Below are positions 60,335 through 61,621 of a stretch of 64,000 nt of DNA, one piece after another. Each line of letters begins with the position of its first letter. The first letter of the stretch is position 1. The stretch spans positions 15,052 through 79,051 of the forward strand of contig JAUSEG010000042.1 in NCBI GenBank assembly GCA_030650415.1. Direction: 5' to 3'. Source of the DNA: a bacterium (GTDB taxonomy: Bacteria; Patescibacteriota; Patescibacteriia; Patescibacteriales; GWC2-42-12). The position numbers were made by a program, and so were the translations under genes. Under the pieces are notes generated by a model. It did no database searches, was not told the DNA's origin, and saw only the letters and a list, made by a program, of their open reading frames with translations.

Positions 60335-61621
60335 ATGAATAACCAAAACAACCAACAACAAATGCTCGAGGGTTCGCGCGCCATCGCCTTAACCATAAAA
60401 AATATCGGTCCGGCGGTTATTTCCGCTTACCCGATTACCCCGCAGACGCATATTGTTGAAGATCTGGCTCAATTTAAAGCCGATGGCCAAGCCGAATATG
60501 AATACGTCCGAGCTGAATCCGAATTCGCGGCCGCTTCAATCGTAGCCGGCGCTTCGGCTGCCGGCGTTAGAACCTACAGCGCGACCAGCTCGCAAGGACT
60601 CCTCTTAATGATCGAGGTGGTTTACAATATCGCCGGCCTGCGCCTGCCCGTAGTCATGACCTGCGCCAATCGCGCGATCGGCGCGCCAATCAATATTTGG
60701 AATGATCAGCAGGACGTTATGGCCGCGCGCGATGCCGGTTGGATTTTACTCTTCGCCGAGAATCATCAAGAAGCGGTTAATCAGCATGTCATGGCTTTTA
60801 AAATCGCCGAGTCGCTTAAAATACCGGTTATGCTGAATGTTGACGGCTATATTATGACCCATACTTACGAACCGGTGATTATTCCCAGCGTTGAACAGAT
60901 AAAAACCTATCTGCCAGATTATACTCCCGAGGCCGGGCAATTTCTGGATACGGAAAACCCGGTAACTTTAGGCGCTCTAGCTACCCCGGCGCACTATATG
61001 GAAATCAGGCAGGAACTTCATGATGATTTGATCTCCAGCCTTAAAACTATTGATCAGGAATATAAAAAATTTAATTCCACTGTCATCCTGGAGGGAGCGA
61101 AACGACCGATAGGATCTCATGGTAAATTGCAGGAACTACGAGATTCTATCGCCTTCGGCTCCAGAATGACAATAATAGATAACGGCTTGCTTGAATATAC
61201 CGGTCCAAAATCTCCGCACACCATAATTATAGCCATGGGCTCGGTAATTGGCACTATCAAAGACACAATTTTTAATCCTCCCTTGAGCGGTTCCCCCTTG
61301 ATAAAGGGGGTTAGGGGGATTTTCAACACAGGGGGAATTGGCATCTTAAAAATTAAATGCTTCCGCCCTTTCCCCTCGGAGCAAATTTTAAAAATTATTA
61401 AATCAGCCAGAAATATTGTAGTTATAGATAAGTCCATTTCGCTCGGAGCGATCGGTCCGTTAGCTTCGGAAATTAAAACGATTGCCCAAGGAAAAACCAA
61501 CGCCAACATCAGGAGTTTCGTCGTCGGCCTAGGCGGTCGCGATATAACTAAGGAGACAATTAAAACCATAATTAAACAAGCCGGCAAAAAAAATAATCAG
61601 GCCAGCTTTATCGGCAGATAA
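60335..61621 (+). CDS. porA: PFOR alpha subunit
   Basis: EGSRAIALT...ISAYPITPQT...YVRAESEFAA.S...GAS.AG.RT..ATSSQGL.LM. Contains two repeat-derived in-frame insertions. Confidence 0.88.
   Translation: MNNQNNQQQMLEGSRAIALTIKNIGPAVISAYPITPQTHIVEDLAQFKADGQAEYEYVRAESEFAAASIVAGASAAGVRTYSATSSQGLLLMIEVVYNIAGLRLPVVMTCANRAIGAPINIWNDQQDVMAARDAGWILLFAENHQEAVNQHVMAFKIAESLKIPVMLNVDGYIMTHTYEPVIIPSVEQIKTYLPDYTPEAGQFLDTENPVTLGALATPAHYMEIRQELHDDLISSLKTIDQEYKKFNSTVILEGAKRPIGSHGKLQELRDSIAFGSRMTIIDNGLLEYTGPKSPHTIIIAMGSVIGTIKDTIFNPPLSGSPLIKGVRGIFNTGGIGILKIKCFRPFPSEQILKIIKSARNIVVIDKSISLGAIGPLASEIKTIAQGKTNANIRSFVVGLGGRDITKETIKTIIKQAGKKNNQASFIGR
61082..61170. repeat. ~90-bp GTCATCCTGGAG...CTCCAGAATGAC palindromic element inserted in frame in porA
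   Basis: It starts on a codon boundary and is translated as VILEGAKRPIGSHGKLQELRDSIAFGSRMT. It is homologous to the intergenic 43141-43252. Confidence 0.7.
61293..61321 (+). repeat. hairpin+G-run repeat inserted in frame in porA
   Basis: CCCCCTTGATAAAGGGGGTTAGGGGGATT is translated as PLIKGVRGI, in the same frame as the topA copy. Confidence 0.75.

What the first reader, a model, noticed from the sequence alone, without database searches (positions are those of the whole stretch)
61082..61321. PFOR alpha subunit carries two different repeat elements in frame
Seen in sequence:
- A ~90-bp palindromic element GTCATCCTGGAG..CGATAGGATCTC // GAGATTCTATCG..CTCCAGAATGAC starts exactly on a codon boundary (61082). 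It reads through as VILEGAKRPIGSHGKLQELRDSIAFGSRMT.
- Its intergenic homolog is 43141-43252.
- About 120 nt downstream, the hairpin+G-run unit (61293-61321) reads as PLIKGVRGI, preceded by a PPLSG-encoding CCTCCCTTGAGCGG that also appears (as PPLSGG) in rsmA.

Both insertions keep the frame open, whereas the intergenic copies contain stops in the corresponding frame (CCC CTT TAA).
Basis: partly seen in the sequence, partly recalled or inferred. Interest (0 to 1): 0.7.

Follow-up and report, generated by a model that had tools for sequence, protein, structure and literature searches.

The report
Hairpin repeats translated inside PorA
An essential metabolic enzyme gene (PorA) of a tiny uncultured bacterium carries two pieces of genome-wide hairpin repeat DNA inserted in frame in surface loops, a "selfish DNA inside proteins" pattern known from Rickettsia, and here the repeats are tied to a small nuclease gene family.

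Summary
The core observation is real. PorA (60335-61621) contains two repeat-derived in-frame inserts that distant orthologs lack.

**Insert 1 (61081-61171):**
- It is a 90-nt palindrome in the linker between domains I and II.
- It is a head-to-head pair of hairpins of the form GTC-ATNCT...AGN'AT-CTC.
- In other genomes the same boxes flank a ~95-aa GIY-YIG nuclease gene. That is the architecture published for NTS/SRM repeats and Ssn nucleases.

**Insert 2 (61274-61321):**
- It is a 30-nt G/C hairpin plus G-run unit with a partial partner, in the first loop of domain II.
- A near-identical copy lies in frame in TopA.
- RsmA carries two further in-frame repeats and a radical-SAM gene carries one.

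**Evolution:**
- Both PorA sites carry many different repeat-like sequences across Patescibacteria orthologs.
- The elements are far better conserved at the DNA level than the host gene: arms 67/69 identical against 71% for the core.
- They show no coding adaptation and no target-site duplication.

**Interpretation:** tolerated, translated selfish repeats, like Rickettsia palindromic elements.

the "stop-avoidance" detail and the claim that the same DNA string occurs in rsmA are not correct.

There is no transcript or peptide evidence.

The parts
60335..61621 (+). PorA, the pyruvate/2-oxoacid:ferredoxin oxidoreductase alpha subunit, 428 aa. It is the host gene of both inserts.
   Evidence: Pfam POR_N 6e-71 and PFOR_II 1e-19. 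9bt4_B matches at 3e-87. PorG (59305-59844) and PorD (59963-60235) lie upstream.
61081..61171 (.). Insert 1, the palindrome TGTCAT...ATGACA. 90 nt are translated as aa 250-279 in the linker between domains I and II.
   Evidence: The same element sits at the same site in P0002 and in P0026/L001.
61082..61118 (+). Left SRM-like hairpin of insert 1: GTC-ATCCT-GGAG-module-CGAT-AGGAT-CTC (C/G variant).
   Evidence: The 5-bp stem ATNCT/AGN'AT covaries across copies in four Watson-Crick variants.
61140..61170 (-). Right SRM-like hairpin of insert 1, inverted: GTC-ATTCT-GGAG-CCGAAGG-CGAT-AGAAT-CTC on the minus strand (T/A variant).
61274..61321 (+). Insert 2. It has a partial outer arm AATCCTCCCTTGAGCGGT, the hairpin CCCCCTTGATAAAGGGGG (61293-61310) and TTAGGGGGATT. 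It is translated as NPPLSGSPLIKGVRGI. A further G-run lies at 61330-61339.
   Evidence: It adds about 13 residues relative to 9bt4_B. A 42-nt stretch (61280-61321) is identical in L116.
43140..43253 (.). Intergenic copy of the insert-1 family (114 nt). It is nested inside an outer palindrome GTCATTGCGAG(43114)...CTCGCAATGAC(43279).
48780..48808 (+). Second copy of the insert-2 hairpin plus G-run unit, in frame in TopA (TPLIKGARGI).
   Evidence: It is an insertion of about 11 aa relative to E. coli TopA structures.
50903..50931 (+). Hairpin plus G-run unit CCCCCCTGACAAGGGGGGAAGAAGGGGGG. It is read from the opposite strand inside rsmA as TPLLPPLSGG.
   Evidence: It is a 5-aa insertion relative to KsgA 6ifs.
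51072..51121 (.). Palindrome CCCCGTGAAAT...ATTTCACGGGG, in frame in rsmA (PREIPAISRGAKRISRG).
   Evidence: RNA fold -35.4 kcal/mol, z = -5.65. It is a 16-aa insertion relative to 6ifs.
51590..51620 (+). Intergenic hairpin plus G-run copy (loop TTTAACAAA), between rsmA and the upstream ORF. A second intergenic copy lies at 5373-5401.
60244..60272 (+). Canonical SRM/NTS-type hairpin TGTCATCCCCGACCTGATCGGGGATCCAG, in the PorD-PorA spacer.
   Evidence: It matches the published SRM search string. The window has 10 matches against 0.08 expected.
33139..33538 (-). A GIY-YIG cassette, the full-length counterpart of the gene-less palindromes. Inverted hairpins GTCATTGCGGCCTCCGAGCCGCAATC at 33139-33164 and 33513-33538 flank a 97-aa GIY-YIG gene (33187-33477).
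56730..57015 (-). GIY-YIG gene (56731-56982) flanked by ACCCCGTGAAAT / ATTTCACGGGGT. This is the same palindrome family as the in-frame rsmA insert.

Best explanation
PorA has been colonised at two permissive loops by small hairpin repeats that litter this Patescibacteria genome, and both are read through as protein.

**Insert 1**
- It is a gene-less, head-to-head pair of SRM-like hairpins: a conserved GTC, a stem ATNCT...AGN'AT, then CTC.
- In the full-length form of the same element, a ~95-aa single-domain GIY-YIG nuclease gene sits between the two hairpins.
- That is the layout described for NTS/SRM repeats and Ssn single-strand-specific nucleases.
- The PorA copy therefore relates to such cassettes as a MITE or REPIN relates to its parent element.

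**Insert 2**
- It is a 30-nt G/C hairpin plus G-run unit with a partial inverted partner.
- The unit is a multiple of three and has only one open forward frame, which reads PLIKGxRG.

**Shown**
- Both segments are insertions.
- Both belong to repeat families.
- The frame is kept.
- They sit in the domain I-II linker and in the loop after the first helix of domain II.
- Their DNA is conserved beyond what the coding sequence requires.
- There is no target-site duplication.

**Inferred**
- The inserts are translated and tolerated as neutral or slightly deleterious passengers.
- Only copies with a length divisible by three and no stop, in tolerant loops, survive.
- Spread is by a hairpin/single-strand mechanism that involves the GIY-YIG nuclease.
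- The PorA copies are kept similar to the family by re-insertion, gene conversion or DNA-level constraint.
For: **They are insertions**
- Alignments with 40 close and 52 metagenomic orthologs.
- Alignment with 9bt4_B.
- Codon views against orthologs that lack the inserts.

**They are repeat families**
- Searches show the four-box architecture, 52-170 nt long.
- One search shows the hairpin units.

**The pattern is general**
- TopA, RsmA (two inserts) and a radical-SAM gene in this window carry in-frame repeats.
- About 13 of about 130 family-1 copies elsewhere lie inside long ORFs, in several frames and both orientations. By my reading of the translations, the hosts include SecA, MnmA, RecG, an Ile/Val-tRNA synthetase, QueA and a SpoU methylase.

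**No coding adaptation**
- 1.71 open frames against 1.67 in shuffles, and uniform length modulo 3.

**No target-site duplication**
- T at position -1 in 57/71 and A at +1 in 59/71, with no direct duplication.

**DNA-level conservation confined to the elements**
- Window against L001: core 70.9% identical, third positions 44.8%.
- Insert 1 differs at 8 of 90 nt. The arms are 67/69 identical, with third positions 22/23, P = 3e-7.
- Window against L116: core 78.4% identical, while 42 nt of insert 2 are identical.

**Each half is its own hairpin**
- Four compensated variants of the 5-bp stem occur.

**Link to GIY-YIG**
- Family-1 boxes flank a GIY-YIG ORF in L042 (Christensenellaceae) and L027 (Saccharibacteria).
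- Of the three GIY-YIG genes in the window, two lie between inverted hairpins and the third has a palindrome end about 40 nt upstream.
- All four sampled homolog loci, representing three distinct loci from three other phyla, have TGTCAT..ATCCAG [gene] CTGGAT..ATGACA.
- The window has 10 strict SRM matches against 0.08 expected.

**Published framework**
- PMC11893778.

**Not an assembly artefact**
- The same inserts occur in independent assemblies: P0002 from ENA, L001 from NCBI and L116 from JGI.
Against: - There is no transcript or peptide evidence that the inserts are translated.
- The PorA element does not match the published strict SRM search string.
- No family-1 GIY-YIG cassette is present in this window, which holds only two family-1 copies.
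- Homology of these GIY-YIG proteins to N. meningitidis SsnA (cd10448) was not tested.
- GIY-YIG genes touch palindromes in varied configurations. The palindromes could therefore be targets of the gene rather than its ends.
- The right junction, ATGACA plus two codons plus (D/G/N)NG, is identical in four deep PorA lineages. This points to one old insertion and sits uneasily with the near-identity of the arms. I cannot tell whether constraint, conversion or site-specific re-insertion explains it.
- Insert 2 has no linked gene, and its fold is not better than shuffles (z = -0.35).
- The structure model was too poor to show exposure (pLDDT 52.7).
Confidence: 0.8

Rival explanations
1. The inserts have been co-opted. 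The peptides form useful surface loops, or the strong mRNA hairpin at the domain I/II boundary slows ribosomes to help co-translational folding. Under this reading, selection keeps them.
For: - Insert 1 sits exactly at the domain boundary and folds at -36.6 kcal/mol.
- Its arms are conserved far beyond synonymous expectation.
- The site is occupied in many lineages.
Against: - Close orthologs carry unrelated sequences, half elements or nothing at the same site.
- The same DNA is read in other frames and orientations in other proteins.
- There is no coding bias.
- Conservation of the boxes is a family-wide property, seen also in intergenic copies across phyla.
Confidence: 0.1
2. The segments are removed before the mature enzyme is made, by RNA splicing, translational bypass or protein splicing. 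Mature PorA would then lack them.
For: - The hairpin structure is stable.
- Some PorA orthologs do carry true inteins: 710-715 aa, with precomputed Pfam hits listed for them.
Against: - Every one of dozens of different inserts at both sites keeps the frame and lacks stops. 51 of 52 metagenomic loci checked are intact, and all the orthologs are uninterrupted proteins. That would be unnecessary if the RNA were spliced or bypassed.
- Pfam finds only POR_N and PFOR_II in the protein.
- There is no Rfam intron or other RNA family match.
- 30 aa and about 13 aa are far too short for an intein.
Confidence: 0.03
3. This is ordinary hypervariable linker evolution by slippage and indels. On this view the similarity to repeats is coincidental or an assembly artefact.
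For: - Both sites are length-variable in the clade.
- The window holds only two family-1 copies.
Against: - The 24-base signature matches exactly in more than 112 genomic stretches.
- 42-nt and 69-nt near-identities exist between genes whose synonymous sites are saturated.
- The same inserts occur in independent assemblies.
Confidence: 0.03

Closest known systems
Rickettsia palindromic elements (RPE; Ogata et al. 2000, as summarised in PMC10969869)
   Same: - They are short palindromic repeats found both between genes and in frame inside unrelated conserved genes.
- The inserts are judged compatible with protein fold and function.
   Different: - The taxon is different and sequence similarity was not tested.
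- RPEs are about 150 bp, and each encodes a conserved peptide.
- Here the elements are 52-170 nt, are read in several frames and orientations, and are spread over several phyla.
- Here they are linked to a GIY-YIG gene.
- The same two PorA loops are occupied by many different repeat types.
NTS/SRM hairpin repeats with Ssn (single-domain GIY-YIG) ssDNA nucleases (Chenal et al. 2025, PMC11893778)
   Same: - The window holds canonical SRM hairpins (TGTCATTCCCGCG.AGGCGGGAATCCAG) and small GIY-YIG genes flanked by inverted hairpins.
- Each half of insert 1 has the same plan: a conserved GTC, a hairpin beginning AT and ending AT, then C.
- The same boxes flank a GIY-YIG gene in other genomes.
   Different: - The PorA element fails the published strict search string, because it has a longer, imperfect stem and CTC instead of CAG.
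- The paper reports NTS as rarely inside genes (2%) and does not describe translated copies or Patescibacteria.
- Nuclease activity and homology to SsnA were not tested here.
REP/REPIN elements with RAYT transposases
   Same: - They are hairpin repeats arranged as inverted doublets, with no target-site duplication.
- A gene-carrying form is flanked by the repeats.
- A single-strand hairpin mechanism is suspected.
   Different: - REPs are extragenic.
- No Y1-transposase (RAYT) gene is found among the window's ORFs.
- The head is TGTC, not GTAG.
Bacterial MITEs with in-frame insertions (ERIC, Coxiella QMITE; PMC5896051)
   Same: They are small elements bounded by inverted repeats that occasionally extend or interrupt ORFs in frame.
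   Different: MITEs have direct-repeat target duplications and derive from DDE insertion sequences. Here no duplication is seen.

Membership tests
PFOR/2-oxoacid:ferredoxin oxidoreductase alpha subunit (PorA) | POR_N (TPP-binding) and PFOR_II domains score above the curated thresholds. | tested here: met
   239 and 71 bits against a cutoff of 27. The PFOR_II match starts at profile position 29, just downstream of insert 2.
PFOR/2-oxoacid:ferredoxin oxidoreductase alpha subunit (PorA) | Operon partners PorG, PorD and PorB are present. | tested here: inconclusive
   PorG and PorD are directly upstream. PorB is beyond the window end. In L001, L002, L117 and L202 it lies 3-5 genes downstream, after pilin-like genes.
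SRM/NTS repeats (Ssn-related motifs) | Match to the published search string HGTCWYN(0-2)YYVSBRHN(0-5)WNVSBRGN(0-2)RNCYNB. | tested here: not met
   The window has 10 matches, all intergenic, and none within 61081-61171 or 61274-61321.
SRM/NTS repeats (Ssn-related motifs) | A directional hairpin with a conserved upstream GTC. | tested here: met
   The form is GTC-ATNCT...AGN'AT-C, with four compensated stem variants: 174, 27, 11 and 9 copies.
SRM/NTS repeats (Ssn-related motifs) | Copies flank a single-domain GIY-YIG (Ssn) gene on both sides. | tested here: met
   This holds for family 1 in L042 and L027. It holds for other hairpin families in the window and in L204-L208. It is not seen for family 1 within this window.
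SRM/NTS repeats (Ssn-related motifs) | The cognate nuclease cuts the single-stranded motif, and the protein belongs to cd10448. | not testable with these tools
   Only Pfam GIY-YIG, single domain, 84-99 aa. No NCBIfam family matched.
Rickettsia palindromic elements | A palindromic repeat inserted in frame in conserved genes as well as between genes. | tested here: met
Rickettsia palindromic elements | Sequence similarity to RPE consensus families, and a Rickettsia host. | not tested
   No RPE library was available. The hosts here are labelled Patescibacteria/Falkowbacteria.
MITE | Terminal inverted repeats, small size and many copies. | tested here: met
MITE | Target-site duplication. | tested here: not met
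   67 of 71 copies show no duplicated base at the ends.
REP/REPIN-RAYT | An associated Y1 (RAYT) transposase and an extragenic location. | tested here: not met
   No such Pfam hit among the 54 ORFs of the window. This copy is intragenic.
Intein | A Hint/splicing domain. | tested here: not met
   Only POR_N and PFOR_II were found. The inserts are 30 aa and about 13 aa.

The most novel reading that the evidence does not exclude
In Patescibacteria, and perhaps more widely, cassettes of a small GIY-YIG (Ssn-type) nuclease gene and their gene-less hairpin doublets are the agents that produce protein-coding palindromes.
- They repeatedly invade, or are refreshed at, the same permissive codons of essential genes.
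- This would identify the long-unknown mobilising activity behind RPE-type selfish DNA in proteins.
- The Ssn paper lists Rickettsia among SRM-rich genomes.
- It would also expose essential coding DNA to a hairpin-specific single-strand nuclease.
Probability: 0.2. Interest if true: 0.8.

Novelty: new member of a known kind. Interest (0 to 1): 0.55.

Why it matters
- **A candidate mobilising enzyme.** In-frame palindromic repeats in conserved genes are best known from Rickettsia, and no enzyme that spreads them has been identified. Here the in-frame palindromes can be tied by sequence to cassettes that carry a GIY-YIG nuclease of the recently described Ssn type. That gives a concrete enzyme to test.
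- **A general habit of this genome.** At least four housekeeping genes in 64 kb are affected. The same two PorA loops carry different repeat-like sequences across the clade.
- **Practical consequences.** This bears on how loop diversity arises in very small genomes. It also affects annotation, HMM coverage and structure prediction of CPR proteins, and the reading of length differences between orthologs.

Tried and rejected
- **Structure model.** AlphaFold2 on the 40-sequence alignment gave a poor model (pLDDT 52.7). It was used only as a weak hint: residues 249-275 and 317-330 are below 50 while domain II is at 75-89.
- **DNA not obtainable.** No DNA was available for P0002, and P0001 is not on record.
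- **Self-BLAST of the window.** It recovered only the insert-2 unit, not the interrupted family-1 similarity.
- **Rfam.** There was no family at the gathering threshold. The only weak hit was a snoRNA at E = 0.42, which I dismissed.
- **Literature.**
  - Searching for the terminal sequences returned only primers.
- **Viral contigs.** Family 1 gave three hits and insert 2 gave none. Neither was followed up.
- **Explanations considered and rejected.**
  - Integron attC: the four-box plan is similar, but there are no GTTRRRY core sites. This rests on reading the sequence.
  - Intein.
  - Group I or II intron.
  - Classical MITE.
- **PDB check of the radical-SAM insert.** The alignment did not reach the insert.
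Full report
**1. The observation**

The ORF 60335-61621 encodes a 428-aa PorA. Pfam gives POR_N for aa 22-243 and PFOR_II for aa 335-408. PorG and PorD lie directly upstream.

Position 61082 is a codon boundary. The following 90 nt read VILEGAKRPIGSHGKLQELRDSIAFGSRMT.

The segment is a nested palindrome.
- The outer arms are TGTCATCCTGGAG / CTCCAGAATGACA.
- The inner arms are CGATAGGATCTC.. / ..GAGATTCTATCG.
- It folds at -36.6 kcal/mol, z = -4.0.

The only other place in the window with the same four boxes is 43140-43253. 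It lies between a LytR-like gene and a Der-like gene.

The second feature, CCCCCTTGATAAAGGGGGTTAGGGGGATT (61293-61321), reads PLIKGVRGI. It has one near-identical copy, at 48780-48808.

Looser copies with a TTTAACAAA loop are intergenic, at about 5373 and 51590.

**2. Are they insertions?**

Yes.
- Against the solved PFOR alpha subunit 9bt4_B, the match breaks between query residues 246 and 285. The chain has 10 residues there, where the query has 38.
- The query also has about 13 extra residues after GTIKDTIF.
- In 52 PorA loci fetched from metagenomes, the distant orthologs (42-55% identity) have short conserved sequences at both places: ..F.K.FGR.Y.GL. and GTIKEVVDELR.KGKKVGLL.
- Expansions occur only in the Patescibacteria-like clade.
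- Close orthologs range from 381 to 451 aa, and the shortest lack both inserts.

**3. Both sites are hot spots**

Among 40 close orthologs, site 1 carries several different sequences.
- The same element occurs in P0002 and P0026.
- A left half only occurs in P0011, P0007, P0024 and P0006.
- A related GTCATCCTGA...TCAGAATGAC element occurs in P0087 and P0118.
- Others have AT-rich repeat-like peptides (LIENCKLKIENLG, IPSLKIKN..) or a short linker.

Site 2 carries PLIKGxRG, PPDKGGKGG, PPYKGGIKGG or KPLSLLRRGGG. In P0083/P0084 it carries several tandem copies of ITPLIKGDRG.

On a neighbour-joining tree of the core alignment, the same insert types are scattered rather than clustered.

The right junction is ATGACA, then two codons, then (D/G/N)NG. 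It is identical in the window, L001, L203 and L126, while the left junction varies.

**4. The inserts behave as DNA elements, not as coding sequence**

| Comparison | PorA core identity | Third positions | Insert |
|---|---|---|---|
| Window vs L001 | 70.9% | 44.8% | Insert 1: 8 of 90 nt differ; arms 67/69 identical; third positions 22/23 (binomial P = 3e-7) |
| Window vs L116 | 78.4% | 58.7% | Insert 2: 42 nt identical |

The flanking codons are diverged right up to the element ends.

Family-1 elements have 1.71 of 6 frames open, against 1.67 for shuffles. Their lengths are uniform modulo 3. They are therefore not built to code.

In-frame copies are what a filter would leave: length divisible by three, no stop, and a tolerant loop.

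The 30-nt hairpin unit is a special case. Its length is always a multiple of three, and only one forward frame is open. That explains the recurring PLIKG peptide (and reading of the sequence).

**5. The phenomenon is general**

In this window:
- TopA has the unit as an insertion of about 11 aa relative to E. coli TopA.
- RsmA has a 16-aa insert that is a perfect 11-bp-arm palindrome, CCCCGTGAAAT...ATTTCACGGGG (-35.4 kcal/mol, z = -5.65).
- RsmA also has a 5-aa insert that is a hairpin plus G-run unit read from the other strand.
- A radical-SAM ORF has ACCCCGTCAAAT...ATTTGACGGGGT in frame.

Elsewhere:
- The right half of insert 1 matched exactly in more than 112 stretches of species-representative genomes.
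- By their record titles these are Patescibacteria lineages, Clostridia, MAGs called Gammaproteobacteria, a Sodaliphilus and one Bathyarchaeia.
- About 13 of about 130 copies sit inside long ORFs, in different frames and orientations.
- By my reading of the translations, the hosts include SecA, MnmA, RecG, an Ile/Val-tRNA synthetase, QueA and a SpoU methylase.

**6. What the elements are**

Copies have T before and A after the ends, and no target-site duplication.

Each half is a hairpin of its own.
- The 5-bp stem next to the conserved GTC occurs as ATTCT/AGAAT, ATCCT/AGGAT, ACTCT/AGAGT and ATGCT/AGCAT, always compensated.
- In PorA the left half is the C/G variant and the right half is the T/A variant.

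The window has three small stand-alone GIY-YIG genes.
- One lies between perfect inverted hairpins GTCATTGCGGCCTCCGAGCCGCAATC.
- One lies between ACCCCGTGAAAT and ATTTCACGGGGT, the family found in frame in rsmA.
- The third has a palindrome end about 40 nt upstream.

In L042 (Christensenellaceae) a 95-aa GIY-YIG ORF lies exactly between box B and box B' of a family-1 element. L027 (Saccharibacteria) is similar, with a closely related protein.

Homologs of the window's GIY-YIG protein number more than 6000 and keep 62-68% identity across several phyla. All four loci sampled without knowledge of their flanks show TGTCAT..ATCCAG [gene] CTGGAT..ATGACA. They represent three distinct loci, because L204 and L205 are the same locus.

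**7. Comparison with what is known**

This is the architecture published for NTS/SRM repeats and the Ssn family of single-domain GIY-YIG, single-strand-specific nucleases (PMC11893778).
- NTS is CGTCATTCCCGCGMAVGCGGGAATCYRG.
- 42% of ssnA homologs are flanked on both sides.
- The authors note the IS-like layout, the rarity of NTS inside genes (2%), and that SRM-rich genomes include Rickettsia and Wolbachia.
- The window has 10 matches to their search string against 0.08 expected. All are intergenic, and one is in the PorD-PorA spacer.
- About 18 GTC-hairpin-C units occur, mostly as inverted pairs.

The PorA element fails the strict string. I therefore call it SRM-like, not an SRM.

The in-frame behaviour matches Rickettsia palindromic elements (PMC10969869). 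None of the ten searches of the held library found a description of this in CPR bacteria or a link between RPE and GIY-YIG.

**8. What remains open**

- Translation is inferred from frame conservation, not observed.
- I cannot decide between one old insertion kept similar by constraint or conversion, and repeated site-specific insertion.
- Insert 2 has no linked gene.
- The structural location rests on sequence alignment to 9bt4_B, because the model was poor.

Noticed in passing
window 48780-48808 (TopA, 47573-49858): A near-identical copy of the PorA hairpin plus G-run unit lies in frame in DNA topoisomerase I (TPLIKGARGI). It is an insertion of about 11 aa relative to E. coli TopA.
   Followed up: yes
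window 50903-50931 and 51072-51121 (rsmA, 50696-51583, minus strand): RsmA carries two in-frame repeat inserts of different families. One is a reversed hairpin plus G-run unit (PPLSGG). The other is a CCCCGTGAAAT...ATTTCACGGGG palindrome (16 aa).
   Followed up: yes
window 2504-2567 (radical-SAM ORF, 2239-3063, minus strand): The palindrome ACCCCGTCAAAT...ATTTGACGGGGT lies in frame inside a radical-SAM (activase-like) ORF next to NrdD. The PDB alignment did not reach it, so its status as an insertion is unconfirmed.
   Followed up: partly
window 6457-6711, 33187-33477, 56731-56982 (all minus strand): Three small stand-alone GIY-YIG genes. Two lie between inverted hairpin repeats and one sits next to a repeat end. 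They look like Ssn-type cassettes.
   Followed up: yes
window 61707-62715, with repeats at 62747-62990: A nucleotidyltransferase/HEPN gene pair plus a cluster of nested SRM-type palindromes sits between PorA and the pilin-like gene. In L002, L117, L118 and L202 the pilin-like gene comes next after PorA. The pair therefore looks like an inserted cassette.
   Followed up: partly
P0038, P0077, P0078, P0093, P0097, P0098: Some PorA orthologs are 710-715 aa, with additional precomputed Pfam domain hits, and one is named a LAGLIDADG family homing endonuclease by its source. PorA in this clade therefore also hosts true inteins.
   Followed up: no
L118 1669-1944 (P0084): The 30-nt hairpin unit is expanded in tandem inside PorA site 2, giving several ITPLIKGDRG repeats interleaved with related FPDTGDRGI units.
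   Followed up: partly
L204-L207: In Thermodesulfobacteriota MAGs, GIY-YIG cassettes with their inverted hairpins sit between the bAvd gene and the reverse transcriptase of what looks like a diversity-generating retroelement. A Nitrospinae MAG has the same bAvd-cassette arrangement.
   Followed up: no
L001, L002, L117, L202: The por genes are split. PorG, PorD and PorA are separated from PorB (TPP_enzyme_C) by T4SS-pilin-like genes and small ORFs, a layout conserved across these genomes.
   Followed up: no
window 7525-12683: Three Bro-N domain ORFs and a DpnI-like restriction enzyme gene lie together, which suggests a mobile or phage-derived island.
   Followed up: no
window 21125-21380 and 57895-57979: AT-rich inverted arrays of ATGAATAA/TTATTCAT-type short repeats form a separate repeat family, upstream of ftsZ and near the arginine decarboxylase gene.
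   Followed up: no
L199-L201 (IMG/VR contigs): Three viral-collection contigs each carry two copies of the family-1 right half.
   Followed up: no
L168 and L178: Two distant PorA loci have a single internal stop codon in an otherwise full-length match. This could be a recoded codon, a sequencing error or a pseudogene.
   Followed up: no
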